A model generated the notes under the pieces. The model was given only the letters and a program-made list of their open reading frames with translations. It had not been told where the DNA came from and searched no databases. This document shows, piece by piece, positions 1-46,151 of a stretch of 64,000 bases of DNA. Within the stretch, counting starts at the first letter, position 1. Each line of letters opens with the position of its first letter. This DNA comes from a virus: the IMG/VR virus record IMGVR_UViG_3300035698_026991, positions 1,202-65,201 of that record; one strand, given 5' to 3'. The position numbers and the translations under genes were made by a program.

Positions 1-3
1 ATA

Positions 4-531
4 TTATTTATTTTTTTCAAACCACCAACTTGGTTGTCTATCATCTCTGATAGGATTATCTTTATCCCACTCGGTCAGTCTCAAACGGTAATTATGGTCT
101 CTTGTATATTCACAGGTCGCTTGTATAACTCCTGTGTTTCCTGTCCTCGTTAAGTACCAGTCGTGGCCTGATACAATTCCACCTATACGAACTTTAGGTG
201 TCCATGTCTCTATATCTTCTTTAACTGATTTATAAGAATGTTCACCATCAATAAATACAAAGTCTAGTGATTCATCTCCAACAAATTTAGCAGCACTAAC
301 ACTAGTATCATGAACGATTGAACAATTTTCATATTTAGATAATCTATCAACTGCTATTTTTTTCTTTGGAAAGATTTTCCCAATTTCCCAACTATCTATT
401 GATAATAGATATACACCAGGTATATTTTCTAAAATAACTTCAGAAAATCTACCATCAAAAACTCCTATCTCAGCACCCTTCTTGAAATCAAGTTCTTTAA
501 AATATTTAATTAATTCTATTCTATTTTTCAT
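4..531 (-). CDS. Class I SAM-dependent methyltransferase (O-methyltransferase-like)
   Basis: Gly-rich SAM-binding stretch GAEIGVFDGRFS and acidic FVFIDGEH motif typical of TylF/CmcI-like MTases. Complete ORF in the minus-strand block. Confidence 0.55.
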   Translation of the reverse strand: MKNRIELIKYFKELDFKKGAEIGVFDGRFSEVILENIPGVYLLSIDSWEIGKIFPKKKIAVDRLSKYENCSIVHDTSVSAAKFVGDESLDFVFIDGEHSYKSVKEDIETWTPKVRIGGIVSGHDWYLTRTGNTGVIQATCEYTRDHNYRLRLTEWDKDNPIRDDRQPSWWFEKNK

Positions 532-532
532 A

Positions 533-787
533 TTATTTATCTAACAAATTATTATTATTAAGACTCTTAAATCCTCTAAATGACTCTGCTCCATATTCTA
601 ATATTTTCTTAAGATCCTTTCTAAAGTGACCTAAACCAATAGTCCACATGTCATCATATAAAGTTCCTATTAAGCAATTAAAATCTTCAACATAAACAAA
701 TTCTATATTTTTATCTTTAAAATATTTAATAAATAGATTATATTCTTCTAAAGACCCAGCGATAATTAATACACGTAATTTTTTCAT
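533..787 (-). CDS. hypothetical protein
   Basis: 84-aa ORF tightly packed between MTase and GT genes, same strand. Confidence 0.4.
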   Translation of the reverse strand: MKKLRVLIIAGSLEEYNLFIKYFKDKNIEFVYVEDFNCLIGTLYDDMWTIGLGHFRKDLKKILEYGAESFRGFKSLNNNNLLDK

Positions 788-788
788 A

Positions 789-1706
789 TTATTTTTTATT
801 ATCTAATAAGTCTTCTTCAATTTTTCTTGCCTCTATAATTTTTTCTCTCCAATCATCTCCCCACCCTGGCATGTCAGGAAACTTCTTCATAAACCATTCC
901 CAGTCATATTTATAATCTTTTGTTGTTAACCAGTAATCACGACAGTAGATACGTCCTTTATTCATTGATTTACCGTGCTCATCGTATTGAGCTGTAGAGA
1001 ATCCATAACCTTTTCCACTTGTACCTTTATGCCAATGAGCATAATAGACTTTTTTATTTACCATCACTCTTCCACCAGAAAACCACGCTTTACACGAGAT
1101 TTCTTGTGCTTCTTGGGTGAAATCACCGTACTTTTCACTGTCTAAAGGTCCAATTAGCTTGTCCCAATAGCTTTTTTTCATAAAGTAAAAACTACCTTGC
1201 ATAGAAGGTGTTTCATCAATTAAAATATCCTCTCTCCCAGGTCTCTTCCAAAGTCCTCCATGTAAACCACAAGATCTATCATTAGGTCTCTGAAAAGGAA
1301 AATCTATATGCATATAATCTATACAAGCTCTTCCATCTTCTATTATCTCCCATTTATCAGGGTCAATTCTATATCTCCTAGGAATAATAACATCCTCATC
1401 CTCACAATCAGCTTTTAAGGCTAAGTCGTAGCCTTGTGACATTAAACAATGTTCATCTATTTTCATTATATGTGTGCCCTTAGCAATAGACATACCTCTA
1501 TTTATACTGTCACGCATTCCTACATTATTAAATTGCGTTCCATGGTGAATAACAATGACACGTTGGTCATTGTTGATCATAGGGCTAGGCCAATATCCAT
1601 CTAGAACTACTATTATTTCAATTTCACCTTCAGCTTTTGAAAGTAAATCGTCAATTGTTTTTTGTAAATAACGTTGATCTCTACTCGGGATAATTACTGA
1701 TAGCAT
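789..1706 (-). CDS. glycosyltransferase family 2 (GT-A fold)
   Basis: N-terminal LSVIIPSRD ... VVLDG motifs characteristic of GT2. 305 aa. Confidence 0.6.
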   Translation of the reverse strand: MLSVIIPSRDQRYLQKTIDDLLSKAEGEIEIIVVLDGYWPSPMINNDQRVIVIHHGTQFNNVGMRDSINRGMSIAKGTHIMKIDEHCLMSQGYDLALKADCEDEDVIIPRRYRIDPDKWEIIEDGRACIDYMHIDFPFQRPNDRSCGLHGGLWKRPGREDILIDETPSMQGSFYFMKKSYWDKLIGPLDSEKYGDFTQEAQEISCKAWFSGGRVMVNKKVYYAHWHKGTSGKGYGFSTAQYDEHGKSMNKGRIYCRDYWLTTKDYKYDWEWFMKKFPDMPGWGDDWREKIIEARKIEEDLLDNKK

Positions 1707-1735
1707 ATATATTCATAATTAATATTTAATAATTT

Positions 1736-1903
1736 TTATTTTTTTTGACCTGGGCCTAGGTCTTTATTAATAACAGAGTCGATTACATTAATTTCTAATG
1801 TTGGTAACTCTTCTATAGTATTTAGACCTAAACAATGTGGACAATTTTGCCATGAGGATCTTCCGTGCGGACACGGTAAATCCTTTTCTTTTTCTTCTTT
1901 CAT
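1736..1903 (-). CDS. small zinc-ribbon protein
   Basis: 55-aa ORF below the ORF-track cutoff, CPHG..CPHC motif. Fills the gap between two GT genes on the same strand. Confidence 0.35.
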   Translation of the reverse strand: MKEEKEKDLPCPHGRSSWQNCPHCLGLNTIEELPTLEINVIDSVINKDLGPGQKK

Positions 1904-1924
1904 ATTATTATTTTAACATAGTTC

Positions 1925-2827
1925 TTACTTGATTGTTTTTGGCTTCTTTCCAGCTGGATCATATTTTTTAGGGACACCTCCTAGTGGGAACATTCTTCCT
2001 TGTTCATCAATATGTTGAACAAAAATTCCTGTATCTACTAAGAACGGATATTTCTTCTTTGAGTATTGTGGCCACCCTGCTTTCTTAAAGATATCGTCTC
2101 TCATTATTCTTTTACAAAAGTTCAGATCAGTTGTACCTCTAACTGAAGAAAATCTTTCTACTTGACCAACCTTAGAGGTTTCAGAAACGTGATCAGGTAA
2201 ATCAAATACTCTTCTAGTCACTTGATCACCAATTCTGTATTCTTCGCTCTCATTCCATAAAGCTCTTATGATAGAACCATGGATCAAGGTTAACCCGAAA
2301 GGAATACCGTCACACCAGACTTTATCTCCTAACTTAAAGTCTTGGAATGAACCATTACCTCTACCTCTATAAAGAATAGGTTCTGCTGGTTGAGACTTTG
2401 TAAAATAAAGACCAGACAACATAGGAACTTTACCTTCGATCATATATTCATTTAATTTAATATAAGTTTCTGGTGGAATAACATTATCTTGTTCTAAAGA
2501 TAAGAACCATTCGTAATTACCTTCAACAACTTGTTTAGCAATTAAGTTCTCAGCATCAGGTAATTGATATTCTAATGGAGAATATGTATTCAACCATTGT
2601 GTCATCTCTACTTGGCTCCAATTAGTCGGTATAATTTGTCCGTATTTTGCCATTACCCATTCTATCCTAACTAAACCTGTTGTTGGTACAGCTAACAAAA
2701 TTCTATTTGTCCAGTTCCCTTTGTTCTTATCTAACTCATGATAAATCTGACTTTGCAAAGATAAATCGTTTCTTTTATTTTTTACTCTTCTTACAGGAAC
2801 ATCTTTTGTTAATTTATTTTTTTTCAT
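1925..2827 (-). CDS. hypothetical protein, possible glycosyltransferase
   Basis: 300 aa. LAVPTTGLVRIEW segment resembles GT-A nucleotide-binding start. Context between GT2 and MTase. Confidence 0.3.
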   Translation of the reverse strand: MKKNKLTKDVPVRRVKNKRNDLSLQSQIYHELDKNKGNWTNRILLAVPTTGLVRIEWVMAKYGQIIPTNWSQVEMTQWLNTYSPLEYQLPDAENLIAKQVVEGNYEWFLSLEQDNVIPPETYIKLNEYMIEGKVPMLSGLYFTKSQPAEPILYRGRGNGSFQDFKLGDKVWCDGIPFGLTLIHGSIIRALWNESEEYRIGDQVTRRVFDLPDHVSETSKVGQVERFSSVRGTTDLNFCKRIMRDDIFKKAGWPQYSKKKYPFLVDTGIFVQHIDEQGRMFPLGGVPKKYDPAGKKPKTIK

Positions 2828-2828
2828 A

Positions 2829-3419
2829 TTATTTAGTTAGCTTAGTATGTTTTTTTAATAATCTTAAATATTCTTTATCAATATTATAGGAAGGAAGAAT
2901 TTCTTTTTTATTTAAAACAACTTCAATGTTACCATTTGAATGCCATGTGTTGATTTTTATTTCCCATGGAAGAGGTGCATATATAGGATATAACTGACCT
3001 CCATTTAATACATCAGTAATAGGAGAAGGATCAAAATAACTCCAAGTCTCTTCATTAACAAAATTACAATGTGTAGGGTCTCTAAACATTCCTGGGGAAG
3101 TCGCATAAGGGGCCCCAATAATAAATTGTCCACCTGGTTTAAGAATTCTCCATGCTTCATTCATCCAAGAAATAAAAATCCCATGTGATGGATTTATATG
3201 TTCCACTACATGAGAAGCAATTGCTAAATTAAAAGATTCCGATGGGACTGCCCATGGGAACTTCTCTAAATCTTGCACTAAATCTACACCGTCTAATTTA
3301 CGATAATCAATACCAAACCAATCTTCACCTTGTTTATTTCCTCCACAACCAATATCTACTCTCGCAAGTTTCCTCTTTGATAAAACACTACGTGTCTTTT
3401 TCGATGTATTCATATTCAT
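2829..3419 (-). CDS. Class I SAM-dependent methyltransferase
   Basis: VDIGCGGNKQGEDWFGID (motif I) and ASHVVEHI (motif II-like) of Methyltransf_11-type enzymes. Confidence 0.6.
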   Translation of the reverse strand: MNMNTSKKTRSVLSKRKLARVDIGCGGNKQGEDWFGIDYRKLDGVDLVQDLEKFPWAVPSESFNLAIASHVVEHINPSHGIFISWMNEAWRILKPGGQFIIGAPYATSPGMFRDPTHCNFVNEETWSYFDPSPITDVLNGGQLYPIYAPLPWEIKINTWHSNGNIEVVLNKKEILPSYNIDKEYLRLLKKHTKLTK

Positions 3420-3494
3420 ATATAATTTTATAATTTAATAATTAAAAGTAACTAATAATGAACCTTTAAAAAAAAGGCCCACTATTAAGCACCT

Positions 3495-4016
3495 TTAAGC
3501 ACTAGCGAACCTTATTTGATATGTAGCATTAATGCTTTGGTTAGTAGCACATGTACTTGAAGCAAATGTGTTACCAGCGAATAATGTTCCTGCGTTAGCA
3601 AGTGAAGTCAAATAGGTGTTGAACAAACCTATATTTGAAACGTCTGCTGATGCTGTTAGGAAACTATTAGCAGAAGAAAATCCTGCTGTAAATTGTGCTG
3701 TTCCTGAAGCAACAACTGATGTCGATACAGCTGCTCTTGAGTTGGTAGTTGCATTTGTTGATCGATGGAAAACTTCTCCATCTAACGTTGTTGCATTTGA
3801 AGCTGGTGCAGATCCTGTTCCAAGTGCCATGTGAGTTACACTTTTCCCTGTTCCTGATACCAACCACCCAACTAAATACTGACGTATTCCAAGGTTTGTA
3901 ATCTGGTTTTCTCTCCAACCAGAATCTCCGACTACTCCTAAACCGTCATCGGTTAGTTGTACTCTAAAGAAACCACGAACTTTCATTCCATCGGAATGAT
4001 TTTTACTTTTTGTCAT
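3495..4016 (-). CDS. putative virion structural protein (Ala/Thr/Ser-rich)
   Basis: 173 aa, beta-rich Thr/Ser/Ala composition typical of phage structural proteins. Lies in the structural block. Confidence 0.35.
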   Translation of the reverse strand: MTKSKNHSDGMKVRGFFRVQLTDDGLGVVGDSGWRENQITNLGIRQYLVGWLVSGTGKSVTHMALGTGSAPASNATTLDGEVFHRSTNATTNSRAAVSTSVVASGTAQFTAGFSSANSFLTASADVSNIGLFNTYLTSLANAGTLFAGNTFASSTCATNQSINATYQIRFASA

Positions 4017-4172
4017 TTATTTATTGTGGATTAAATAATAAAATACTAATCTAGATTAACATTTTTATACGAGTCGACACCCATACAAAAAAACTTATAT
4101 TTTTATTCATAATATAAAAAATGTTCTTAACATTTTTATTATAAACATAAATATAATAAAAAGCAAATGAGT

Positions 4173-4206
4173 AAAAACCCATAGCTAAAAAAAGCTATAG
4201 GTTTTT
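4173..4206 (-). terminator. rho-independent terminator (bidirectional hairpin) after gene 4221..4652
   Basis: AAAAACCCATAGC-loop-GCTATAGGTTTTT. One-mismatch stem flanked by A-run and T-run, immediately downstream of the minus-strand stop. Confidence 0.6.
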
Positions 4207-4220
4207 AATAAAAATTTAAC

Positions 4221-4652
4221 TTATTCTACTACATTAAATGTTTTTGTTTCGTAAGTTTTCTGTATTGTCCTAAACATATTTACTCGATTTGAAAAAGTTA
4301 ATTTCAAATAATATTCTCCTACTGGTAAAGTATTAGGAACTATTTGTGAATAACTTTTTACAGTATGACATCCTATTTCTAGATTCCCTGTTATTTCAGG
4401 AGCTGTAAATATTATTCCATCAACGAATTGTACATTTAAAGAACCTTTGACATCTTTATTTTTACAATAGCAAAATTCTATTGGTAGAGGATCTCCTCTC
4501 TTAAATGTCTCTCCTATAACAATAGGATCTTCTACAAGTTCAAATACTCTTATTGGAAAAAAAGACATATAAGTAAAAATACAAAGTATTAAAGTCATTA
4601 AACCTAAGGTTGTTATCGAAGCTATATTCATTTTTGAATGTTCAATTGACAT
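4221..4652 (-). CDS. membrane-anchored hypothetical protein
   Basis: N-terminal hydrophobic helix (ITTLGLMTLILCIFTYMSFF), 143 aa. Confidence 0.4.
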   Translation of the reverse strand: MSIEHSKMNIASITTLGLMTLILCIFTYMSFFPIRVFELVEDPIVIGETFKRGDPLPIEFCYCKNKDVKGSLNVQFVDGIIFTAPEITGNLEIGCHTVKSYSQIVPNTLPVGEYYLKLTFSNRVNMFRTIQKTYETKTFNVVE

Positions 4653-4839
4653 ATTATTTTGTTACTACTAATGATATTAAAGCAATGATGACAGCGGTTA
4701 ACATTAAAGTTACCAGCCCAAAAACAATCTTTTCAACAAGTTTTATTGCGAAAGAACTACTATTCTTCTTTCCTTGAACTTCGTTGTTCCTTCTTATTGC
4801 TAATTCTATTTTATCTGAATTGTTTTCTGTCATAATTTC

Positions 4840-5835
4840 TTATTGTTGTGGTGATGGACTTACTGATGACGATGGACTTTCAGAAGCAGATGCAGAAGTT
4901 GAAGGACTTAATGAAGCTGAAACTGAAGTCGAAGGACTTACAGAAGCAGACGCAGACGTCGATGGACTAACTGAAGCTGAAACTGATGAGGATGGACTTG
5001 CTGATGCCGAAGGACTCACTGAAAGCGAAACAGATGCAGATGGACTTACTGAAGCTGATGGGCTTAATGAAGCCGATGGGCTATCTGATGCTGATGATGA
5101 TGATGATGGACTAACTGAAGCTGAAACTGATGATGACGGGCTTAGTGAAGCTGAAGAGGATGCAGATGGACTCAATGAAGCAGAAGGACTTGCTGATGCA
5201 GATGGGCTTGCGCCTGTCTTATCAATATCAAGATCTTCTGATAGATTCATTGCTTCTCCTACTTTAATTGAGAAATCAGATAAGTCAGAATTTGTACCAA
5301 CTGCTAATCTATATGTTTGAATACCTGTTACGTTAATCGAATTCAACAAAGTTGAAGACGTTGCAAGGTTTTCTACATAAAGACTCATTGGAAAACCTGT
5401 AACATATGTTTCATTAACATCTACTTGAAGATTTCCATTTACATAAAACTTAACTGCTCCTGCTTCCCATTTCACTCTAAACTCGGTATCTGTCGATGTC
5501 CAAGCTGTTTGCCATGTTATTGTTGTTGATCCAGAATTTGTTCCATCTGAAACTTTTGCTGATATAACAGAATCTGATATATCAAAATAAGCATAAGAAT
5601 CTTTGTTGTATTGTTTGAAACCAAATCTTTTATTATCTCCAAAAGCTGGTGCTGATAAATTAAGGCTGAACACCGCGTCACCACGCATAATGTCACCATA
5701 ATGAATCATGGATGAATCAGAAAGACTTAGTGTCGATCCGCTTACGACTGGAAGACCCCATAGAGTTCTCCACGTTTCTGTGGAATACCCTTCTCTTACA
5801 GGATCGTAGTATATGTTTGTATATTTGTATGACAT
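4840..5835 (-). CDS. virion-associated protein with C-terminal Ser/Ala/Pro hexapeptide-repeat tail
   Basis: 331 aa. N-terminal beta-rich globular part, then about 145 aa of (S-P-S-A-S-x)n repeats at the C-terminus. Same strand as the capsid genes. The opposite-strand ORF 4784..5320 is its shadow. Confidence 0.6.
   Translation of the reverse strand: MSYKYTNIYYDPVREGYSTETWRTLWGLPVVSGSTLSLSDSSMIHYGDIMRGDAVFSLNLSAPAFGDNKRFGFKQYNKDSYAYFDISDSVISAKVSDGTNSGSTTITWQTAWTSTDTEFRVKWEAGAVKFYVNGNLQVDVNETYVTGFPMSLYVENLATSSTLLNSINVTGIQTYRLAVGTNSDLSDFSIKVGEAMNLSEDLDIDKTGASPSASASPSASLSPSASSSASLSPSSSVSASVSPSSSSSASDSPSASLSPSASVSPSASVSLSVSPSASASPSSSVSASVSPSTSASASVSPSTSVSASLSPSTSASASESPSSSVSPSPQQ
4850..5215. repeat. 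coding tandem repeat (18/36-nt period) encoding SPSASx units
   Basis: Repeated units such as GATGGACTTACTGAAGCTGAAACT across about 360 nt. Both strands give open low-complexity frames. Confidence 0.8.
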
Positions 5836-5902
5836 GATGTTTTTATAATAACTTACTAATTATTCCTTAATTATAGCACAGTACCTTTTCTATATTCGTT
5901 AT

Positions 5903-6493
5903 TTAAGCCTTTTTTATTTTTGTGCCTTTATTTTTTTTTGATCCGCTTTTTATAGGATTCATAGGTGTTGGTTCTTCTTCTAACTCTTCTGTTACCTCTT
6001 CTAAATCTGGTAATTCATCAATAACTGGAATCTCTATATCTTCTTCTACCTCCTTTTTAACGGGTTGAGCTAAATCAGAAATTATTTCTTTTAAAACTCC
6101 TGGATTATCTTTTATAAACTCTGGAAGCATTTTAACTGCTTCATCTTGTATCATCTTTCTTAATTGTGGAGTCATTTGAACTTTAGGGGAACCTTCTTTT
6201 TTACCTGCATGTCCGTACTTAATTTCAGTAGTAACATGTTCTGGTTCCATATTAACTCTTGTGTCAGAAAAAGGATCAATTTCTTTTGCCTTAACTTCTA
6301 CAAAGTCTGTGTCATAAGATGGATGATTCCTCAATAGTTCTACTATTGAATCATCTTTGATATCGACTACCCCATCTTGAAACTTAATGTATAAACCTGG
6401 TATGGAATGTGTTCCTAATGCTCTATTACCTTCTATCCCTGGTTTTAGAACGATCATATAATTCGAGTTCTTGCTAACAAATTTTGTTGACAT
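5903..6493 (-). CDS. hypothetical protein with acidic C-terminus
   Basis: 196 aa in the head module. C-terminal EEDIEIPVIDELPDLEEV acidic tract. Confidence 0.4.
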   Translation of the reverse strand: MSTKFVSKNSNYMIVLKPGIEGNRALGTHSIPGLYIKFQDGVVDIKDDSIVELLRNHPSYDTDFVEVKAKEIDPFSDTRVNMEPEHVTTEIKYGHAGKKEGSPKVQMTPQLRKMIQDEAVKMLPEFIKDNPGVLKEIISDLAQPVKKEVEEDIEIPVIDELPDLEEVTEELEEEPTPMNPIKSGSKKNKGTKIKKA

Positions 6494-6588
6494 AATATTT
6501 TTTATTCATAATTATTAATTTTTTCGGCCTTAACCCGAAAGAGAATTTCTTCTCTCCCAGATAAAGCCAAAAAAGGCTATTAAACAAT

Positions 6589-7332
6589 CTATTCCCGAGC
6601 GTAATCAACTTGTAAAAAGTTGGTTGTAGCATCAGTAATAGCTGAATCATTTAACATAACGATTAAATCATTACCGTACCCAGCCTGAATAGGTGAGTCA
6701 GTAAGATCAATTGTTGTAGCTACGTTATCTACGGTTGTCCACTGGTATAGTTGAGTTTCTACGTCTCCGACTGGGTCGTATTCATAGACTCTCAAACCAT
6801 TGGCAGTAGCTCCACTGATATTAGCTTGATATTTAATTCCGTTTATCTTAACACGGTCACTCCCACCTGGAATCTCCGTCTTAAGTGTTGCATCATCATT
6901 TCTCAAAACTCCTCTATCAGCTGATACTCTGTAGAACATTGAGTCGTTTACACTCTGATCCATGAAAACTTCATAGATAGATTCTCCGCCTCTTGTTACT
7001 GCAGTAATCACACTGTCAGGTAGTAATGCACTTGATGCTGTTAATGTAGCTCTAAGCCCATCAATCACTCTAGCTTTCCAAGACAAACCATGATTCTCAT
7101 TGATTTCATCAACAAGTAAACCTAAATTTGTGTATGTAGAAAAAGCTAAAGATCCTGTTGTTGTAGCTGCGTCAGCTAAGGTTATACCAGTAGCTGAAGC
7201 AAGAGTAACTACAGGAGTAGCAGCTGTAGAAACATGTACTATTTCAATAGCTAAACTTTTGTCATCGGTAGTAATACCAGACATAGTTCTCCCCTTTAAT
7301 TCTCTTACTTTCATTTCTGCTAAACTTGACAT
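6589..7332 (-). CDS. capsid-adjacent structural protein (paralog B)
   Basis: 247 aa. Shares N-terminal MSSL.., internal and C-terminal (..LQVDYARE) similarity with 7367..8080. Thr/Ala-rich. Confidence 0.45.
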   Translation of the reverse strand: MSSLAEMKVRELKGRTMSGITTDDKSLAIEIVHVSTAATPVVTLASATGITLADAATTTGSLAFSTYTNLGLLVDEINENHGLSWKARVIDGLRATLTASSALLPDSVITAVTRGGESIYEVFMDQSVNDSMFYRVSADRGVLRNDDATLKTEIPGGSDRVKINGIKYQANISGATANGLRVYEYDPVGDVETQLYQWTTVDNVATTIDLTDSPIQAGYGNDLIVMLNDSAITDATTNFLQVDYARE

Positions 7333-7366
7333 AATATTTTTTTGAATTAATTAGTAAAGTTTAGAG

Positions 7367-8080
7367 CTATTCTCTAGTGTAAAGAGCTTGTAAGTAGTTA
7401 GCTCCAGCATCAGTAAGTGATGTTGAATCAGTAACCATAATTACAAGATCGTTACCTTCCTTAGCAGTAATTGGACCTTTAGTGAAATCGTGTGTTGTTA
7501 ATGTTGCATCAACTGAAGCAGCTGACCAAATTAAGGTCTCTGTTCTTCGAGTTGAATCCCATTCGTAGATACGAACAGCACCTGCTGTTGCAGTATCAAT
7601 ATCTTCGTTGTATTCGAACTTAACTAACTTAACTCTATGACCAGTTGATGGCAATAAATTACCAGCAGTTCTGTCGTAAGTAAGTCTAATGAAAGAAGCA
7701 ATTACTACGGATGTATCAAGATGAACGGTGTAACCCATTTCATCGTTAAGTACATCTGCTGTTATAGCAGCATTTTCCAATAATTCACTTCCGTCTGTAG
7801 CTGTTGTTCGAAGAGCGTCTAGAATTTTACATTCCCAGTTGTTTGCGGCATTAATTGTATCTGCAACATCACCTAAAGTAGTATCAGATGAAAATGTAGA
7901 TGTAGTTGTGCCGTCAGCATCAATTAAAACAAGATTTGTTGCTGTTGTACAAGTAACTGATGTTATTGCAGATGTTCCAACATGCTTTATTCTCAAAGCG
8001 ATTGGACCATCATCAACGTATCTTATTGAAGTTGTTTGTGAAGCTAAAGCTCTAGTCTCTAATGAATTTAAACTTGACAT
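7367..8080 (-). CDS. capsid-adjacent structural protein (paralog A)
   Basis: 237 aa. Paralog of 6589..7332 (C-term ..LQALYTRE). Immediately downstream of the major capsid gene. Confidence 0.45.
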   Translation of the reverse strand: MSSLNSLETRALASQTTSIRYVDDGPIALRIKHVGTSAITSVTCTTATNLVLIDADGTTTSTFSSDTTLGDVADTINAANNWECKILDALRTTATDGSELLENAAITADVLNDEMGYTVHLDTSVVIASFIRLTYDRTAGNLLPSTGHRVKLVKFEYNEDIDTATAGAVRIYEWDSTRRTETLIWSAASVDATLTTHDFTKGPITAKEGNDLVIMVTDSTSLTDAGANYLQALYTRE

Positions 8081-8099
8081 AATATTTTTTTAATTAGCC

Positions 8100-8200
8100 G
8101 TCAATGACCCGTGACTTAATCGGGACGGATCACATACGGGAGGACTCGACACCCTCCCGGATCCGCATGCTTATGATTTTAAATCCCATAAACATGTAGG
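8100..8200 (-). terminator. GC-rich hairpin element downstream of major capsid gene (attenuator/terminator candidate)
   Basis: GGGAGG-ACTCGACA-CCTCCC and CCCG-TGACTTAAT-CGGG hairpins in an otherwise AT-rich intergenic. No clear U-run on the minus strand. Confidence 0.3.
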
Positions 8201-8217
8201 ATTATTTGGATTTCAGA

Positions 8218-9477
8218 TTAACTAGTTACTCCCAATAACAAAGCATGCTTGGATGCTTGTTTTCTCTCTAAACCAGCTTCTGTTATGTATTGATCTACTT
8301 CACCATCAGCATCGGGAGCTTGAATGTTTGTTGATAGTTTAGTGTCTCGGTTGTTCATGTAACGGTATCTAAAGCATTCTAGGTCTAACATAAATGCGTA
8401 ACCTGCGTAATCTTGAACGAACATAGGATTGTGTACAATATTAATTGAACCAAATGCTGTTACCCAATTACTAATCTTCATTCCGTAAGTTGTGTCTAAT
8501 GGTTTTGTTTGGATTTGTCCTCTAGCAATTTCGTTAATTGCTTGTAATACAATACCTCCTGCGAACATTACTTTAGTTTCGTTTCCATAAGTAAATCCTT
8601 CTCTAAGGAATGTATTCATGTCAGGGGCTGTTAAAGGACCACTTTGGTTTTGAACGTATGAGTTACCTGCACTCATGAATTCATGGATTCCTCCTGTACT
8701 TCTTCTTGGGTGACCGTATATACCTGTGTCGGCATATTTTTGACCCCACCAAAAAGCTCTTTCAATATCTAGAGCATGTTCTGTACCTTTCTTTGCTCTC
8801 TGGAAAGGAAGGTCTTTACCTCCGTAAAGATTAGCTTCTTTTTCAGTATTAGATACTGCGATTGTTGTTTTGAAGATTTGTGTATAGTTAGATTGAGGAG
8901 CTGTAAGTGTTGAGTTTACATTTCTCGCACCACTATTTTCTTCATTAACGTTACCGATAATGAAAAGTCCATCACCGTCAGCCATTGTAGCTGCAGCTGT
9001 TGAACCAAATCCTCTGGCAGCAGCAACAAAAGTTGTTGTTGTTACCACTCCAACTGTAAAGGATTCACCTGTTCGAGCGTTTTTAACAACGTCTCCTAAA
9101 GTGAAGATACTACCAGAGCTTGATCCTGCTCCTGTAACAGTAACAGTTTGATCTGCTGCTGCGGAAACAGTACCTGAAACTCGCGCATATCTACCACCGT
9201 AGACATCTTCAAACCATTTGAATTCTGGGTTTCCTGTCCCTGATTTCATTAATCCTGAACCTTTCCAGGATTTTCCGTCAAATACTTTACCTACGTTTGT
9301 AAGCAATGTTACCAATGGATGTTTGTTGGGTTCTAGTAAAAAGATTTTGTCTACAGCATCAACAACTAATCTTTCCTCTGTGGAAGCAGTTGTTGTAGTT
9401 CTTTGATAACCTGTTGCAGATGTATCTGTAACCTGTCCAGTTAAATGGGTAGGTTCGTTATAATAAGGGTATGACAT
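8218..9477 (-). CDS. major capsid protein (HK97-like, putative)
   Basis: 419 aa Gly/Thr-rich protein directly downstream of an acidic coiled-coil scaffold-like gene and of portal/TerL. Order and size fit an MCP. Confidence 0.6.
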   Translation of the reverse strand: MSYPYYNEPTHLTGQVTDTSATGYQRTTTTASTEERLVVDAVDKIFLLEPNKHPLVTLLTNVGKVFDGKSWKGSGLMKSGTGNPEFKWFEDVYGGRYARVSGTVSAAADQTVTVTGAGSSSGSIFTLGDVVKNARTGESFTVGVVTTTTFVAAARGFGSTAAATMADGDGLFIIGNVNEENSGARNVNSTLTAPQSNYTQIFKTTIAVSNTEKEANLYGGKDLPFQRAKKGTEHALDIERAFWWGQKYADTGIYGHPRRSTGGIHEFMSAGNSYVQNQSGPLTAPDMNTFLREGFTYGNETKVMFAGGIVLQAINEIARGQIQTKPLDTTYGMKISNWVTAFGSINIVHNPMFVQDYAGYAFMLDLECFRYRYMNNRDTKLSTNIQAPDADGEVDQYITEAGLERKQASKHALLLGVTS

Positions 9478-9547
9478 AATAATGTTTTGATAATTCTAAT
9501 AATAACTATTAATGTTTTGTTAAGAACAATTTTTTAGATAATACTCA

Positions 9548-10363
9548 TTAGAAGACATTTGGATTCGATTTTGCAGCAATTAGGCTGTCGACAGCTTCTG
9601 AGTCACCCTTTATATGGGTAGCTCTACTAGAGCCTCCTCCAGTATTTAATGCCATCTTTTTATTAGCTTCCGCTAATTCAACTTCTGCTTGCTTTTTAGC
9701 TGCTTTCTCAGATAACTCTCCTTTGACAGCATGATATGCAACAGATACTTCTGTTATATCGTCATGTTTGTCTAGCCATTTATCTATGTCAGTAGCATAT
9801 TTTTCAAAATCAGGTGTTCTTGATATAAAATCTTTAGTAGTAGCTTCGAAAGCACTTAGATCATCACGTCTCTTTAACTCCTTGTCAAAGTCCGCTTTTA
9901 ATCCTTCGGCTTTTTCTTCCACTAACTTTGTTACTTCTTCAGAGGAAGTACCTTTATACCCTTCTTTCCCTAAATCTTTCTTGACTTCTTCGTGAGCTTT
10001 ACTAACTATTTGGGCATCCCCAATGGAAACTTTCCCTTCAAGAGCGGCTTTCGCTAAATCAGTATCTACTTTTCCACTTAAGATGGCTTTAACGATATCA
10101 GGATTTTTATCTAGATTATCTAGCAATGGTTCGATATCAGAAAAGAACTTTCTAAACTGACCCAACTCATCTCCTTGTTTACCGATAAGACTTTCTAACT
10201 CCTTGACTTGGTCCTTACCTTCTTCTATTTTTACTTCTCCTTCTTTTTTTGATGCTTCCCCCTCTTTAACTAAACCACCAATGGCGTTTAAATCAGGAAC
10301 ATTCTCTTCTATAGGAGGACTCCCCGGTTGTCCGGATCCTTCAAATTTATCTTCTTTACTCAT
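9548..10363 (-). CDS. scaffolding protein (putative)
   Basis: 271 aa, very acidic/Lys-rich and predicted coiled-coil. Immediately upstream of the MCP. Confidence 0.5.
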   Translation of the reverse strand: MSKEDKFEGSGQPGSPPIEENVPDLNAIGGLVKEGEASKKEGEVKIEEGKDQVKELESLIGKQGDELGQFRKFFSDIEPLLDNLDKNPDIVKAILSGKVDTDLAKAALEGKVSIGDAQIVSKAHEEVKKDLGKEGYKGTSSEEVTKLVEEKAEGLKADFDKELKRRDDLSAFEATTKDFISRTPDFEKYATDIDKWLDKHDDITEVSVAYHAVKGELSEKAAKKQAEVELAEANKKMALNTGGGSSRATHIKGDSEAVDSLIAAKSNPNVF

Positions 10364-23869: not shown

Positions 23870-24811
23870 ATGAAAATGTTAATAACAGGTGGCGCGGGAT
23901 TTATAGGATCAAACTACATTCATTATGTGATGAAGAAGCATCCTGGTTATACAATTACAAATTTAGATTTATTAACCTATGCAGGTAATTTAAATAATCT
24001 AGTTGGTGTGGACCAGAGCGATGACTACGTTTTTATACAAGGGAATATCCTAGACGAATCATTAGTGAATAGATTAGTTAAAGAATCCGACATTGTTGTT
24101 AACTTTGCTGCAGAAAGTCATGTAGATAGATCAATAGAGAATCCAAACGATTTTACAATTACAAATACACTAGGAACTCAAGTATTATTGAATGCTTGTT
24201 TAAAATATAAAAAGAGATTCCATCAAATATCCACAGACGAGGTATTTGGTGATTTGCCGTTAATAGGGAAGGAGAAGTTCACTGAGAATACTTTGTACAA
24301 TCCTTCTAGCCCTTATTCAGCTTCCAAAGCTGCCGCAGATCATCTTGTACGAGCTTATCACAAAACCTATGGTCTTGATGTAACTATAACTAATTGTTCT
24401 AACAATTACGGAAGATTTCAACACGAAGAGAAGTTTCTACCTAAAATGATCATACAAGCTGTTAAAGGTGAGAAATTACCTATTTATGGTGAAGGAAAGA
24501 ACATGAGAGATTGGATACACGTAGAGGATCACTGTTCGGCCATAGATTTGGTCATTCAAGAAGGAAAAGTAGGAGAGACATACCTTGTAGGTGGTAATGC
24601 ATGCAAAAGCAATATAGATGTAGCAAACGAAATTTTAAAGGCTCTACATAGGGATAAATCCAGCCTCGAATTCGTCACAGACCGTCTTGGGCATGACCTT
24701 CGATACGAAGTAGATTCATCTAAGATAGAGAAAGAGCTCGGGTGGAAGAGAAAGTACAATTTTAAGGATGGATTAAAAGAAACAATTAATTGGTATACAC
24801 CAAGTTATTAA
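23870..24811 (+). CDS. rfbB: dTDP-glucose 4,6-dehydratase
   Basis: MKMLITGGAGFIGSNY Rossmann start, YSASKAAADHLVRAYHKTYGL (YxxxK catalytic motif), NCSNNYG. Start moved to the in-frame ATG at 23870 to avoid overlap. Confidence 0.85.
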   Translation: MKMLITGGAGFIGSNYIHYVMKKHPGYTITNLDLLTYAGNLNNLVGVDQSDDYVFIQGNILDESLVNRLVKESDIVVNFAAESHVDRSIENPNDFTITNTLGTQVLLNACLKYKKRFHQISTDEVFGDLPLIGKEKFTENTLYNPSSPYSASKAAADHLVRAYHKTYGLDVTITNCSNNYGRFQHEEKFLPKMIIQAVKGEKLPIYGEGKNMRDWIHVEDHCSAIDLVIQEGKVGETYLVGGNACKSNIDVANEILKALHRDKSSLEFVTDRLGHDLRYEVDSSKIEKELGWKRKYNFKDGLKETINWYTPSY

Positions 24812-43752: not shown

Positions 43753-44538
43753 TTATTTATCTATTAACCACGTCTTACTTATTTCTTCTATCCTCTTTTT
43801 TATATTTGGAAGAGGGTGAGTCATAATTGTTCCCAGCACTGTCGAAACTCTTTTAGCTCTGTCACTTGTTAATTCATCTAGTTCTTTTTTAGAAATAACT
43901 TCGTGAGGATGGTTAAACATTTCCATTATCTCACTAGGTGAGATTGTTCCTTCGTTAAACAAATGATGAGGCCCTCTAACGCCTTGCCTCCCAATCAATT
44001 TACCTATTTCTGGAATCATATCTTCTAAAATGGTTGCAGATTCTTGAGTATTTACAACTTTTGTATACTTCAACAATTTATCAATTGTATTACGAGAATG
44101 ACTTTTCTCTGAAATTAACAATCTTGGACGAATTATTAGAGTATTAGGATCAATTTCCATGATCAGTCGTTCTGCCATTAGTTTTGTTTCTGTATAAAAA
44201 CATTGTGGATTCTGATCACTATCTTCGTATTTTACATCTGTTTCATCATCTGATTTGAAAATACAAGCTGAAGAAAAGAACACATGTTTGACACCAGCGT
44301 TAAGAGCAACAACAGCAACATGTGCCGCATCAATCACATTTACATCGAAAGCTGCCATTTTGTTTTCTTCACACCAATCTATAGATGTTCTCGCTGCCGT
44401 ATTTATCACGACATCATAATCCATTAAATCATTTGTTGTTATATCATTTAATCTCTTATTCCAGATATCAGCTCCTAAATGCTCTGCTAATGGTAGTCCA
44501 ACGAAACCTTTTCCTATTACAAGTATTTTTTTATTCAT
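43753..44538 (-). CDS. NAD-dependent sugar epimerase/reductase, dTDP-4-dehydrorhamnose reductase (RmlD)-like
   Basis: MNKKILVIGKGFVG Rossmann start and YTETKLMAE (YxxxK) motif. 261 aa. Confidence 0.5.
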   Translation of the reverse strand: MNKKILVIGKGFVGLPLAEHLGADIWNKRLNDITTNDLMDYDVVINTAARTSIDWCEENKMAAFDVNVIDAAHVAVVALNAGVKHVFFSSACIFKSDDETDVKYEDSDQNPQCFYTETKLMAERLIMEIDPNTLIIRPRLLISEKSHSRNTIDKLLKYTKVVNTQESATILEDMIPEIGKLIGRQGVRGPHHLFNEGTISPSEIMEMFNHPHEVISKKELDELTSDRAKRVSTVLGTIMTHPLPNIKKRIEEISKTWLIDK

Positions 44539-45071: not shown

Positions 45072-45475
45072 TCGTACTCAAATGGTTTCTCTAATTTAAT
45101 GTTCTTTCTAATTTTTTTGTCAGGTTTTTGAATTGAATCCCATTCATTCTTTCCGCAATGAATACATTTCCAATGCAGACCTGTTCCAAAAAATCTACGA
45201 AAAGTATTATCACAATTTTTAATATCTTTTTGGGCTTCTCTTACTTTTCTTAGATAATAATCATTGATAGATTCATTTGGATCACTCATCCATGAATAAT
45301 TAGGTTTAACTAATCTAAATTCATGTTGCCCTTTATTCTTCTTACATGGGTATTTCTTCTTCCAAAAACCACTAGGGAATTTTCTATCTTTTTCCTCCCT
45401 GTCTAATTTTGTTCTAATTTGACTAGAAGTTTTATCTGTATAACCCTTTTGTCTAATCTTTTTATATAAGCTCAT
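45047..45475 (-). CDS. hypothetical basic protein
   Basis: 142 aa, Lys/Arg-rich, CIHCG motif. Confidence 0.35.
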   Translation of the reverse strand: MSLYKKIRQKGYTDKTSSQIRTKLDREEKDRKFPSGFWKKKYPCKKNKGQHEFRLVKPNYSWMSDPNESINDYYLRKVREAQKDIKNCDNTFRRFFGTGLHWKCIHCGKNEWDSIQKPDKKIRKNIKLEKPFEYDWLLKIKI

Positions 45476-46151
45476 GATTCTTTTTTACATAGATGCTAGT
45501 TTTTAAAAGAGATTCAGGAGTACCCATGTCACTCCAGAAATGCTTAAGCTTTATAACATTCATCTCACCTTTTTTAAGATACCAGTTATTAACAGCTGTT
45601 ATTTCTAATTCATTTCGTTTCGAAGGTTTCAATGTTCTTATATAATCAAAAACTGTTGAATCATAAACATATAAACCCGTAACTGCTAATGAACTTTTTG
45701 GGTTATCTGGTTTTTCTATGATTAAATTGTCATGAAATACACCGAATCTTTCTGGAGAATCAACCCACTTAGTAAAAATAGTTGGACCTTTAATCTCTGA
45801 CCATTTTATTTTGTCTGCAAAAAAATTATCTCCTAGTATAACTGCAATATTTTCTTCCTTAGAAAAGTCTTCAGCTAAACCTAATGCTTGTGCTATTCCT
45901 CCTGCTTCTTTCTGGACTCTATAAGTTAAATTAACACCAAAGTCAGAACCATCTTTTAGGAAGTTAGCTATATCTCCTACATGATCACTACTAGAAATAA
46001 TAAGAATATCTGTAATAGACATATTCTTAAGGGTTTGTAATGGATACATAATCATAGGGACGTTAACTACAGGGACCATCTGTTTATTCATTACAGATGT
46101 TATCGGTGCTAACCGTGTTCCTTTACCTCCTGCCAGAATTATTCCTTTCAT
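45462..46151 (-). CDS. rfbA: glucose-1-phosphate thymidylyltransferase (short form)
   Basis: MKGIILAGGKGTRLAPIT ... VILGDNFF. Classic sugar-nucleotidyltransferase motifs. Confidence 0.75.
   Translation of the reverse strand: MKGIILAGGKGTRLAPITSVMNKQMVPVVNVPMIMYPLQTLKNMSITDILIISSSDHVGDIANFLKDGSDFGVNLTYRVQKEAGGIAQALGLAEDFSKEENIAVILGDNFFADKIKWSEIKGPTIFTKWVDSPERFGVFHDNLIIEKPDNPKSSLAVTGLYVYDSTVFDYIRTLKPSKRNELEITAVNNWYLKKGEMNVIKLKHFWSDMGTPESLLKTSIYVKKNHELI

What the first reader, a model, noticed from the sequence alone, without database searches (positions are those of the whole stretch)
4..5835. Candidate phage virion O-glycosylation system with a Ser/Ala/Pro hexapeptide-repeat acceptor tail
A structural protein (4840..5835) sits beside the capsid genes. 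It ends in about 145 residues of (SPSASx)n, a classic O-glycosylation acceptor sequence. A few kb away on the same strand are a GT2 glycosyltransferase, a second GT-like gene and two SAM-methyltransferases. Elsewhere the phage encodes RmlB (23870), RmlA (45462..46151) and an RmlD-like reductase (43753..44538). Together these look like machinery to make a dTDP-deoxyhexose, possibly O-methylated, and attach it to the virion. Phage-encoded virion glycosylation is known in only a few mycobacteriophages. An RmlC step is not visible.
Basis: partly seen in the sequence, partly recalled or inferred. Interest (0 to 1): 0.8.

Follow-up and report, generated by a model that had tools for sequence, protein, structure and literature searches.

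The report
Phage serine-repeat tail with sugar-adding enzymes
An uncultured phage carries a lectin-like particle protein ending in 60 perfect serine-X repeats, and across many unrelated phages such repeats sit next to the same sugar-transferase and methylase genes, which points to a widespread but untested way of coating virus particles with sugars.

Summary
ORF 4840-5835 (-) encodes a 331-aa protein with a ConA/GH16-like jelly-roll N-domain. Its C-terminal tail is 123 residues, not about 145. The tail is a strict (X-Ser)60 dipeptide repeat, the pattern of the glycosylated serine-rich-repeat adhesins.

Downstream on the same strand lie four soluble enzymes: MT11, a GT-A glycosyltransferase (p300), a GT2 (GT2_789) and a Methyltransf_24 (MT24).

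Comparative genomics splits them:
- MT11 and p300 are core genes in all relatives whose contigs reach that site, with or without a Ser tail.
- GT2_789 and MT24 occur only in relatives whose homologue has a Ser tail.

A DNA-pattern scan of IMG/VR gave 23/30 non-redundant loci with long SX tracts carrying this GT2 family. The figure was 0/31 for loci without such tracts (p=5e-11). The two genes were on the same strand in 28/28 cases, with a median gap of 502 bp. SX tracts also sit on a T4 gp15-like tail protein and on fibre-like proteins.

RmlC is not needed, because the "RmlD-like" gene best matches bifunctional NRS/ER epimerase-reductases.

The GT2 family is absent from 50,697 deposited phage records. 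It is common in Patescibacteria MAGs, in at least one case beside a giant SX protein.

Glycosylation itself is untested.

The parts
4843..5211 (-). C-terminal (X-Ser)60 dipeptide-repeat tail of the repeat protein (residues 209-331). It is the proposed O-glycosylation acceptor.
   Evidence: Ser fills 60/60 alternate positions. Ser codons are a mix of TCN and AGY. TRF arrays lie at 4862-5211. Tail length varies among relatives: 0 units (P0002), 31 (P0001), 38 (L007) and 60 (window).
5212..5835 (-). N-terminal ConA-like/GH16-like beta-jelly-roll domain (about residues 1-175) plus a linker, in the repeat protein REP.
789..1706 (-). GT2_789: a soluble GT2-family glycosyltransferase. It is the accessory enzyme that co-occurs with SX tracts.
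   Evidence: PF00535, 1.9e-10. No TM segment. Invariant KIDEH motif. The family has 204 50%-identity clusters at E<=1e-30. Linked to SX tracts.
4..531 (-). MT24: a SAM-dependent methyltransferase (Methyltransf_24), the conserved partner of GT2_789.
   Evidence: PF13578, 3.9e-14. A homologue lies within the fetched flank of the GT2 homologue in 63/76 genome loci. It is fused to the GT2 in P0142 and P0167.
1925..2827 (-). p300: a GT-A-fold glycosyltransferase with no Pfam family. It is a core gene of this phage clade.
2829..3419 (-). MT11: a SAM-dependent methyltransferase, the core partner of p300.
   Evidence: PF08241/PF13489 at about 5e-06; PF08241 27.4 bits is above its 21.2 cut-off. Conserved at 69-75% in the relatives whose contigs reach it.
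3495..4016 (-). p173: a conserved Ser/Thr/Ala/Asn-rich structural-module protein. It always lies between REP and MT11-p300 and could be the target of that core pair.
   Evidence: Weak hits to phrog_5417 and phrog_4176 (tail fiber). Identity of 67-87% in all relatives.
23870..24811 (+). dTDP-glucose 4,6-dehydratase (RmlB).
   Evidence: TIGR01181 at 445.6 bits, above the cut-off of 365.1. The profile match starts at residue 22-23 of the ORF that begins at TTG 23807.
45462..46151 (-). Glucose-1-phosphate nucleotidyltransferase, a short RmlA-like form.
   Evidence: PF00483, 7e-50. TIGR01207 at 215 bits, below the cut-off of 360.
43753..44538 (-). NRS/ER-like SDR enzyme, a probable bifunctional NDP-4-keto-6-deoxyglucose 3,5-epimerase/4-reductase.
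   Evidence: Best PDB match is 4qqr (A. thaliana 3,5-epimerase/4-reductase) at 4e-19. 7jid, named UDP-L-rhamnose synthase by its depositors, scores 7e-10; its identity with Mimivirus L780 is from my own recall. Named dTDP-4-dehydrorhamnose reductases score 1.3e-11 at best (1vl0) and otherwise 2.6e-09 or weaker. GxGxxG, YxxxK and the aligned CIF and RNxIxK residues are present.
8218..9477 (-). Major capsid protein of SU10 type. It anchors the structural module and has no Ser extension itself.
   Evidence: PF17236, 1.1e-51; sequence.

Best explanation
The region encodes a phage-borne protein O-glycosylation module.

The substrate is the (X-Ser)60 tail of a ConA-like virion accessory protein, REP (4840-5835). 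REP is probably a capsid- or neck-attached fibre or decoration protein.

Proposed steps:
1. In the infected cell's cytoplasm the soluble GT2_789 (789-1706) transfers sugar from a nucleotide sugar onto the alternating serines.
2. Its conserved partner MT24 (4-531) O-methylates the glycan.
3. The core pair p300 (a GT-A enzyme) and MT11 either extends the same glycan or modifies another structural protein, such as p173.
4. The phage supplies a 6-deoxyhexose donor itself. An RmlA-like nucleotidyltransferase feeds RmlB, which feeds an NRS/ER-like bifunctional epimerase-reductase. The likely product is NDP-L-rhamnose, and no RmlC is needed.
5. The glycosylated, extended tail then projects from the particle as a hydrophilic brush.

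Shown here: the domain and fold assignments, the absence of TM segments or a signal peptide, and the genomic linkage of SX tracts with the GT2_789/MT24 cassette.

Inferred: that sugar is actually attached to the serines, which sugar it is, what the methylases act on, where REP sits on the virion, and what the coat does.
For: Within the clade:
- Relatives share the order TerL-portal-MCP-p237-p196-REP-p173-MT11-p300.
- GT2_789 and MT24 appear only where REP has an SX tail: the window, L007 and the distant L141. In tail-less relatives the same slot holds fibre-like genes.

Searching from the enzyme:
- 4 of 5 IMG/VR loci and 3 of 3 further loci found by GT2_789 homology carry long SX tracts, on unrelated N-domains.

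Searching from the repeat:
- 23/30 dereplicated loci of at least 8 kb with 30 or more SX units have the GT2 family. The figure is 0/31 for loci with fewer than 15 units (p=5e-11).
- The genes are on the same strand in 28/28 cases, with a median gap of 502 bp. Locus GC runs from 35 to 66%.

Carriers are virion proteins:
- A T4 gp15 tail-sheath stabiliser (PF16724, 7e-64), Gly-rich/TIG fibre proteins, and a small protein in a Mu-like head module.

Other support:
- GT2 and MT24 are adjacent in 63/76 genome loci and are sometimes fused.
- All four enzymes and REP lack TM or signal segments.
- Alternating-Ser repeats are the O-glycosylated element of SRRPs (PMC6973325).
- The literature reports mycobacteriophage glycans at the C-termini of capsid and tail-tube subunits, and clusters of three glycosyltransferase genes next to an O-methyltransferase gene that modify those proteins (Freeman 2023, as cited in PMC12619734 and PMC11600133).
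- RmlB homologues lie inside some SX/GT2 cassettes (L110, L134).
Against: - There is no biochemical evidence of any glycan.
- REP's presence in the virion is inferred only from gene position and fold.
- MT11 and p300 are equally conserved in relatives without an SX tail, so half of the enzyme set has another or additional target.
- The Rml genes lie 18-40 kb away in other transcription units. Their link to this tail is untested, and a scan for RmlB relatives found nothing usable.
- In more divergent GT2 homologues from MAGs, only 18/62 loci show an SX tract within 10 kb.
- The co-occurrence counts are not corrected for phylogeny. The control loci are chance pattern matches, many of them from GC-rich phages.
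- The window ends at the MT24 gene, so the rest of the cassette cannot be seen.
Confidence: 0.6

Rival explanations
1. The SX tail is an unmodified flexible, hydrophilic spacer or 'entropic bristle', like polyserine linkers. The GT2/MT24 cassette glycosylates something else: another virion protein such as p173 or the MCP, or a host envelope polymer. The two travel together only because both belong to the same mobile fibre/host-range region.
For: - p300 and MT11 clearly act without any SX tail in relatives.
- Within long fibre proteins SX tracts sit between folded domains, as linkers do (L142, L143, L018).
- Only 18/62 MAG loci with divergent GT2 homologues have SX tracts within the flank.
Against: - The linkage is very tight and directional: 23/30 against 0/31, same strand 28/28, median gap 502 bp. 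It holds across unrelated phage backbones and a wide GC range.
- Small proteins that are little more than an N-domain plus an SX tail sit directly upstream of the GT2 (L020, L142).
- Ser is invariant at 60/60 positions through both codon families, which is stricter than a linker needs.
- The enzymes have no TM segment, unlike most envelope-polymer systems.
Confidence: 0.22
2. The GT, MT and Rml genes modify the host cell surface. This could be O-antigen, teichoic-acid or S-layer glycan remodelling that excludes superinfection or masks the receptor. They would have nothing to do with the virion.
For: - Phage GTs that change host serotype are well known (review statement in PMC12619734).
- In the WWE3 chromosome locus L158 the same cassette lies among cell-envelope genes (FtsX, PcsB-like).
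Against: - The genes lie at the end of the late structural operon, on the same strand as the capsid genes.
- None of the proteins scanned in the finding region (4-5835) has a TM segment typical of membrane GTs or flippases, and none gave a Wzy or Gtr family hit.
- This reading does not explain the SX-tract linkage.
- In L158 a giant SX protein of more than 1129 aa lies about 1 kb downstream of the last gene of the cassette, which again points to a protein substrate.
Confidence: 0.1
3. The sugar-nucleotide, GT and MT genes hypermodify phage DNA by base glycosylation or methylation, as an anti-restriction measure.
For: - PHROG labels the MT24 family 'DNA methyltransferase' (phrog_2675, 2.4e-17).
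- Virus GTs that glycosylate DNA are known (Pyle 2024, cited in PMC12619734).
Against: - The ten large ORFs scanned in the replication region gave no dNMP hydroxymethylase or thymidylate-synthase-like hit. That scan covered only part of the window.
- The GT genes are embedded in the structural module and linked to SX-tract proteins.
- MT24 is paired with, or fused to, the GT2 rather than to DNA-metabolism genes.
Confidence: 0.04

Closest known systems
Mycobacteriophage virion glycosylation (Che8, Corndog, Myrna; Freeman et al. 2023, Cell Host Microbe 31:1216)
   Same: - Phage-encoded glycosyltransferases lie next to an O-methyltransferase.
- Glycans sit on C-terminal extensions of virion proteins.
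- Modification is cytoplasmic (as summarised in PMC12619734 and PMC11600133).
   Different: - The acceptor here is a 60-unit strict Ser-X repeat on an accessory ConA-like protein, not the C-terminus of the capsid or tail-tube subunit.
- Neither GT2_789 nor p300 has any detectable relative in 50,697 deposited phage records (tblastn). I take that collection to include the mycobacteriophages but did not check it.
- The hosts are uncultured and the genomes are low-GC.
- The original paper could not be read here.
Serine-rich repeat glycoproteins (SRRPs: GspB, Fap1, SraP, L. reuteri SRRP) and the staphylococcal SD-repeat proteins
   Same: - SRR domains consist of alternating serines.
- They are O-glycosylated in the cytoplasm on Ser/Thr before export, and extra GT-A enzymes extend the glycan (PMC6973325).
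- Some SRRPs have lectin-like binding regions.
- The window tail shows the same S-X periodicity.
   Different: - No GtfA/GtfB (GT-B fold, DUF1975) priming pair was seen in the region.
- No aSec signal peptide and no AST domain were seen, and the protein ends in SPSPQQ rather than an LPXTG anchor.
- The candidate transferase is a GT-A/GT2 enzyme.
- The carrier is a virus particle protein, not a cell-wall adhesin.
- The SD-repeat comparison rests on my own knowledge and was not checked.
Giant-virus autonomous glycosylation (Mimivirus fibrils; R141/L780 UDP-L-rhamnose pathway)
   Same: - A virus-encoded 4,6-dehydratase works with a single RmlD-like bifunctional epimerase/reductase to make NDP-L-rhamnose without RmlC (PMC9741107).
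- The window enzyme aligns with PDB entry 7jid, a UDP-L-rhamnose synthase that I recall as Mimivirus L780 (7e-10), and with plant NRS/ER (4e-19).
   Different: - This is a bacteriophage-sized genome.
- RmlB scores as the dTDP type (TIGR01181).
- The acceptors and transferases are unrelated.
- The bifunctional activity of the window enzyme is inferred from sequence only.
PglL/PilO-type general O-glycosylation of Ser/Ala/Pro-rich low-complexity regions (Neisseria, Burkholderia, Acinetobacter)
   Same: The acceptor regions are Ser/Ala/Pro-rich low-complexity segments, often at the C-terminus. This rests on my own knowledge and was not checked here.
   Different: Those systems transfer a lipid-linked oligosaccharide en bloc in the periplasm through a membrane oligosaccharyltransferase. 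Here the enzymes are soluble GT-A proteins and the substrate has no export signal.

Membership tests
Mycobacteriophage-type virion glycosylation system | Phage-encoded glycosyltransferase(s) clustered with an O-methyltransferase | tested here: met
Mycobacteriophage-type virion glycosylation system | The acceptor is a C-terminal extension of the major capsid and/or tail tube subunit | tested here: not met
   The MCP (8218-9477) ends without a Ser-rich extension. The extension is on a separate ConA-like protein. In other phages with this cassette it sits on a gp15-like tail protein or on fibre-like proteins.
Mycobacteriophage-type virion glycosylation system | Enzymes homologous to the mycobacteriophage GTs | tested here: not met
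   tblastn of GT2_789 (E<=0.01) and p300 (E<=0.001) against 50,697 phage records gave no match.
Mycobacteriophage-type virion glycosylation system | Glycan detected on virion proteins | not testable with these tools
   Needs mass spectrometry or glycan staining of particles or recombinant protein.
Serine-rich repeat glycoprotein (SRRP)/aSec system | Long domain of alternating serines | tested here: met
   Ser fills 60/60 alternate positions over 120 residues. SRR definition from PMC6973325.
Serine-rich repeat glycoprotein (SRRP)/aSec system | GtfA/GtfB priming glycosyltransferase pair (GT-B fold, DUF1975) | tested here: not met
   Pfam scans of all ten ORFs in 4-5835 found only GT-A/GT2 enzymes and methyltransferases. 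About 40 of the roughly 64 ORFs of 100 aa or more in the whole window were scanned, so the rest of the window is not excluded.
Serine-rich repeat glycoprotein (SRRP)/aSec system | Extended aSec signal peptide and C-terminal LPXTG anchor | tested here: not met
   There is no hydrophobic N-terminal segment (maximum KD19 of 0.80, which falls in the tail). The protein ends ...SVSPSPQQ.
Glycosyltransferase family 2 (Pfam PF00535) | Score above the Pfam gathering threshold, with the GT-A N-terminal nucleotide-binding region | tested here: met
   GT2_789 scores 41.4 bits against a cut-off of 23.3, over residues 3-131. The family alignment shows the invariant motifs IIPSR, VLDG and KIDEH.
GT-A fold glycosyltransferases (for p300) | Rossmann-like GT-A fold with a DxD-type motif | tested here: met
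dTDP-L-rhamnose pathway (RmlABCD) | RmlB equivalog | tested here: met
   TIGR01181 at 445.6 bits, above the cut-off of 365.1.
dTDP-L-rhamnose pathway (RmlABCD) | RmlA equivalog | tested here: inconclusive
   TIGR01207 at 215 bits is below the cut-off of 360. The full NTP_transferase domain is present (PF00483, 170 bits). The nucleotide specificity is unknown.
dTDP-L-rhamnose pathway (RmlABCD) | Separate RmlC cupin epimerase | tested here: not met
   The small neighbouring ORFs have no cupin, RmlC or FdtA hit by Pfam (E<=0.1) or, for two of them, by PDB phmmer (E<=10). Only part of the window was scanned.
NRS/ER (UGER, L780) bifunctional 3,5-epimerase/4-reductases | Single RmlD-like domain closer to NRS/ER than to bacterial RmlD, with the catalytic YxxxK motif | tested here: inconclusive
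   4qqr scores 4e-19. The best named dTDP-4-dehydrorhamnose reductase, 1vl0, scores 1.3e-11. GxGxxG, FYTETK and the aligned aCIF and RNxIxK residues are present. The bifunctional activity of the reference enzymes is from PMC9741107. The role of the Cys/Lys pair is recalled from memory, not verified. Activity was not tested.
Glycoside hydrolase family 16 (for the REP N-domain) | Catalytic ExDx(x)E motif on the cleft strand | tested here: not met

The most novel reading that the evidence does not exclude
The window is one instance of a large, undescribed protein O-glycosylation system: strict Ser-X repeat tracts plus a soluble GT2(DEH)/Methyltransf_24 cassette. The system is shared between Patescibacteria (CPR) cells, where it lies beside giant SX surface proteins, and a broad range of uncultured phages, which graft SX tracts onto capsid, neck, tail and fibre proteins. 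On this reading the phages coat themselves in host-type, possibly methyl-rhamnose-containing, glycans. The cassette would also serve as a host-linkage marker for CPR phages.
Probability: 0.35. Interest if true: 0.9.

Novelty: new variant of a known kind. Interest (0 to 1): 0.76.

Why it matters
In the literature seen here, virion glycosylation by phage-encoded enzymes is documented only for a few mycobacteriophages. There it alters antibody recognition.

The evidence here suggests a different and much more widespread version:
- a recognisable acceptor, the strict Ser-X tract;
- a recognisable enzyme pair, GT2_789 and MT24;
- presence in at least tens of unrelated uncultured phage lineages (30 dereplicated IMG/VR loci here), and a GT2 family of hundreds of sequence clusters;
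- presence in Patescibacteria genomes, yet complete absence from cultured phage collections.

If confirmed, it would do four things.
1. Define a new bacterial/phage protein O-glycosyltransferase family with a GT-A fold.
2. Give a sequence signature for predicting glycosylated virion proteins in viromes.
3. Offer a possible handle for assigning phages to CPR hosts.
4. Provide a compact, fully soluble, self-contained glyco-engineering cassette: donor synthesis, transferase, methylase and a portable acceptor tag.

The hypothesis can be tested directly by co-expression in E. coli.

Tried and rejected
Searches that found nothing useful:
- Megablast of 1-12000 against phages gave no match, so the phage has no close cultured relative.
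- tblastn of the REP N-domain, GT2_789 and p300 against phages gave no match.
- A single-sequence scan of IMG/VR with full-length REP gave only low-complexity false candidates. An alignment-based scan worked.
- Sequence searches of PDB with p300, as a single sequence and as a profile, and with the REP profile found nothing useful. Fold searches were needed.
- The scan for RmlB relatives in IMG/VR failed, so the Rml-SX link could not be tested.
- Freeman 2023 (PMC10527164) is not held. Literature searches for SPSAS with phage, serine-rich phage O-glycosylation, and Patescibacteria serine-rich glycosylation found no prior description.

Ideas considered and rejected:
- REP as an active GH16 hydrolase. 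The catalytic motif is absent.
- RmlC hidden in the small ORFs p137, p142 or p128. No cupin signal was found.
- The + strand ORF 4784-5320 as a gene. It is the antisense of the repeat, and all neighbouring genes are on the - strand.
- The hexapeptide as the basic repeat unit. The period is 2.
- The idea that all four enzymes are tail-specific. MT11 and p300 are core genes.
- The 205-aa p173 variant in L004, which looks like a frameshifted C-terminus.
- The weak GalT1 (5hea) hit of GT2_789. At E 0.033 it is only a generic GT-A similarity.

Full report
**What is in the window.** The window is a low-GC (about 32%) phage genome segment with no close relative among 50,697 deposited phage records. 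From about 21.7 kb down to position 4 all genes are on the minus strand and form a late structural operon. In order they are:
- large terminase (13576-15048);
- P22/SU10-type portal (11434-13542);
- a scaffold-like gene;
- SU10-type major capsid protein (8218-9477, PF17236 1e-51);
- two paralogous 237/247-aa proteins and a 196-aa protein;
- the repeat protein REP (4840-5835);
- two small single-TM proteins;
- a 173-aa Ser/Thr/Ala-rich protein (p173);
- four enzymes: MT11 (2829-3419), p300 (1925-2827), GT2_789 (789-1706) and MT24 (4-531).

The window's left edge cuts the operon just after MT24.

**Checking the observation.** The repeat is real and far beyond chance, but its description needs refining.
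- TRF finds 18-60-bp arrays at 4862-5211.
- The tail is residues 209-331, which is 123 aa. Ser occupies 60 of 60 alternate positions with no register break. The intervening positions hold Ala, Pro, Val, Ser, Leu, Thr, Asp and Glu.
- 'SPSAS' occurs only seven times, so the basic unit is the dipeptide Ser-X.
- The invariant serines are encoded by six codons from both the TCN and AGY families. Conservation therefore acts on the amino acid and is not only repeat copying.
- The opposite-strand ORF 4784-5320 is the antisense image of the repeat.

**The carrier protein.**
- An AlphaFold model built on 11 homologues (pTM 0.70) shows that residues 1 to about 175 form a beta-jelly roll.
- The GH16 catalytic ExDxxE motif is replaced by ExRxKxE, so I treat the domain as lectin-like.
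- REP has no signal peptide or TM segment.

**The enzymes.**
- GT2_789 passes the Pfam GT2 threshold.
- Both methyltransferases are class-I SAM enzymes.
- None of the four has a TM segment.

**Relatives separate the enzymes into two tiers.** Fifteen related loci share the order TerL-portal-MCP-p237-p196-REP-p173-MT11-p300.
- MT11 and p300 are 68-75% identical in every relative whose contig reaches them, whatever REP's C-terminus looks like. They are core genes with a target that does not depend on the Ser tail. That target is possibly p173, which always sits beside them.
- The REP C-terminus is variable. It has no tail in P0002 (70% identical, ending exactly where the repeat starts). It has short 'SISESVTV'-type alternating Ser/Thr motifs in most relatives. 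It has SX tails of 31, 38 and 60 units in P0001, L007 and the window.
- GT2_789 and MT24 homologues appear only in L007. Its REP has an (SPSASV)n tail, and a large cassette follows p300 there: a UDP-glucose-dehydrogenase-like gene, GT2, two MT24 genes, an epimerase-like gene, further GT2s and another methyltransferase.
- In tail-less relatives the same slot holds glycine-rich fibre-like genes. L001 additionally has a small Anp1-like GT.
- A distant REP homologue (29% identity) in a 105-kb SU10-type phage contig (L141) independently carries an 81-unit SX tail together with a GT2_789 homologue and a sugar cassette.

**The linkage generalises.**
- *Searching IMG/VR by GT2_789.* This returned five loci on unrelated backbones. 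Four have proteins with long SPSAS(V/I/L) tracts, and the fifth is a 6.7-kb fragment.
- *Contexts from other databases.* Three more contexts were examined and all have SX tracts.
- *Carriers.* They include a T4 gp15-type tail-sheath stabiliser with a C-terminal SX extension (PF16724, 7e-64) and a Gly-rich/TIG fibre protein. They also include a small protein in a Mu-like head module and about 110-aa N-domains followed by 200-aa SX tails directly upstream of the GT2.
- *Searching by the repeat.* A DNA pattern for SPSASxSPSA retrieved 120 IMG/VR loci. After dereplication, and restricting to loci of at least 8 kb, 23 of 30 with 30 or more SX units carry a GT2_789-family gene. None of 31 loci with fewer than 15 units does (Fisher p=5e-11).
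- *Arrangement.* The SX gene and the nearest GT2 gene are on the same strand in 28/28 cases, with a median gap of 502 bp. The loci span 35-66% GC.
- *The enzyme pair.* MT24 accompanies the GT2 in 63 of 76 genome loci and is fused to it in some proteins.
- *Family size.* The GT2_789 family is sizeable, with 204 clusters at 50% identity at E<=1e-30. It is entirely absent from deposited phage genomes.

**The donor pathway.**
- RmlB is an equivalog-level match.
- The nucleotidyltransferase is RmlA-like but scores below the cut-off.
- The 'RmlD-like' protein matches the Arabidopsis bifunctional 3,5-epimerase/4-reductase NRS/ER best (4qqr, 4e-19). It also matches PDB entry 7jid, a UDP-L-rhamnose synthase that I recall as Mimivirus L780 (7e-10). 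The best named bacterial RmlD, 1vl0, scores 1.3e-11 and the others 2.6e-09 or weaker. GxGxxG, YxxxK and the aligned CIF and RNxIxK residues are present.
- NRS/ER, UGER and L780 carry out both the epimerase and reductase steps with a single RmlD-like domain (PMC9741107). The absence of RmlC is therefore expected rather than a gap.
- No cupin was found in the small neighbouring ORFs.
- This assignment is sequence-based and moderate in confidence.
- The Rml genes lie far from the cassette, and their link to the tail is inferred. RmlB homologues do sit inside some SX/GT2 cassettes elsewhere (L110, L134).

**Where else the cassette occurs.**
- In species-representative genomes the GT2_789 family is found mostly in Patescibacteria/CPR MAGs: Saccharibacteria, Woesebacteria, WWE3, Paceibacterota, Zambryskibacteria and others. 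It is also found in some MAGs labelled Gammaproteobacteria and in DPANN archaea.
- On a 240-kb WWE3 contig (L158) the cassette lies beside FtsX and PcsB-like cell-division genes. A protein of more than 1129 aa with hundreds of SX units lies about 1 kb downstream of the last gene of the cassette.
- Only 18 of 62 such loci show SX tracts within 10 kb. Many of those tracts begin right at the flank limit.
- This hints that the system is native to CPR bacteria and is borrowed by, or shared with, their phages. One p300 homologue is also binned in a Shapirobacteria MAG.
- The host assignment remains weak.

**Best explanation and rivals.** My preferred reading, at about 0.6, has four parts.
1. Soluble GT2_789 O-glycosylates the alternating serines of REP's tail in the cytoplasm.
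2. MT24 methylates the glycan.
3. The core p300/MT11 pair extends the same glycan or modifies another structural protein.
4. The phage makes its own NDP-6-deoxyhexose, probably L-rhamnose.

The glycosylated tail would project from the virion. The rivals are:
- the tail is an unmodified spacer and the cassette has another target (about 0.22);
- the genes remodel the host envelope (about 0.10);
- the genes hypermodify DNA (about 0.04).

The tight same-strand adjacency across unrelated phages, the lack of TM segments, and the within-clade covariation of tail and cassette argue against all three. None is excluded without biochemistry.

**Comparison with known systems.**
- *It works like the SRRPs of Gram-positive bacteria.* These have alternating-Ser repeats that are glycosylated in the cytoplasm (PMC6973325). 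It is not a member of that family. No GtfA/B pair, aSec signal or LPXTG anchor was found.
- *It works like mycobacteriophage virion glycosylation.* There, phage GTs and an O-methyltransferase modify C-terminal extensions of virion proteins. It is not a member of that family either. The enzymes are unrelated and the acceptor is not the capsid or tail-tube subunit.
- *The donor pathway resembles that of giant viruses and plants.*

I rate it a new variant of a known kind.

**Caveats.**
- Co-occurrence is not corrected for phylogeny.
- The control loci are chance pattern matches.
- The AlphaFold models are of medium confidence.
- The key precedent paper could not be read.
- The window truncates the cassette.

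Noticed in passing
window 1925-4016 (-), and L001-L015: The trio p173 - MT11 - p300 (a GT-A enzyme) is conserved at 67-87% identity and in fixed order in every relative whose contig reaches it, with or without a Ser tail. The p300 family has more than 1100 metagenomic members, no Pfam family and no relative in cultured phages. What this core glycosyltransferase/methyltransferase pair acts on is unknown; p173 is a candidate.
   Followed up: partly
L158 (WWE3 MAG, 240-kb contig) 5265-20879; L144-L219: The GT2_789/MT24 cassette occurs mostly in Patescibacteria/CPR MAGs. In L158 it lies beside FtsX and PcsB-like genes, with an SX-repeat protein of more than 1129 aa about 1 kb downstream of the last gene of the cassette. 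This suggests a cellular origin and possibly CPR hosts for these phages.
   Followed up: partly
P0003-P0010; L008-L015 REP homologues, C-termini: Relatives without the SX tail end in one to three short 'xSISESVTV'-type motifs with Ser/Thr at alternate positions. The long SX tract may have expanded from these. Many relatives also have two tandem REP paralogues, a short one and a long one.
   Followed up: partly
window 789-1706 (alignment A4): The GT2_789 family has an invariant KIDEH motif where GT2 enzymes usually have DxD. From memory, a DxH motif is typical of mucin-type polypeptide GalNAc-transferases. Many family members are 500-1350 aa long with two or three GT copies.
   Followed up: no
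window 48759-50381 (-): A phage-encoded Cpn60/GroEL-type chaperonin (PF00118, 4e-61).
   Followed up: no
window 36626-39408 (+): A MoxR-type AAA_5 ATPase followed by a VWA-domain protein. SPFH/Band-7 (33498-34316) and ROS/MucR-like (34486-35460) genes lie upstream.
   Followed up: no
window 50451-52226 (-), 55368-57065 (+), 58167-59174 (+): A replication and recombination set: a prim-pol fused to a DnaB-like helicase, an SNF2 helicase and a full-length RecA (4e-93). None of the ten large ORFs scanned in this region gave a hit to a base-hypermodification enzyme.
   Followed up: no
window 4221-4833 (-): Two small single-TM proteins (59 aa and 143 aa) are inserted between REP and p173. Close relatives L004 and L005 have an unrelated 81-aa ORF there. 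Their function is unknown, and a holin-like role is possible.
   Followed up: no
window 6589-8080 (-): Tandem paralogues of 237 and 247 aa (39% identical) lie directly after the MCP. The duplication is shared with L004, L005 and L007, while more distant relatives have a single copy. They are probably capsid decoration or auxiliary proteins.
   Followed up: no
window 44535-44846 (-) and 22385-22458 (+): An S4 RNA-binding-domain protein lies between the RmlA-like and ER-like genes. A single tRNA-Thr(TGT) lies at the divergent strand switch near 22 kb.
   Followed up: no
L017 9996-10967; L143 8376-8921: In other phages SX tails are appended to a T4 gp15-type tail-sheath stabiliser. They are also appended to a small protein in a Mu-like head module, between the protease/scaffold gene and the next head-module gene. 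The tract therefore behaves as a portable tag on different virion proteins.
   Followed up: partly
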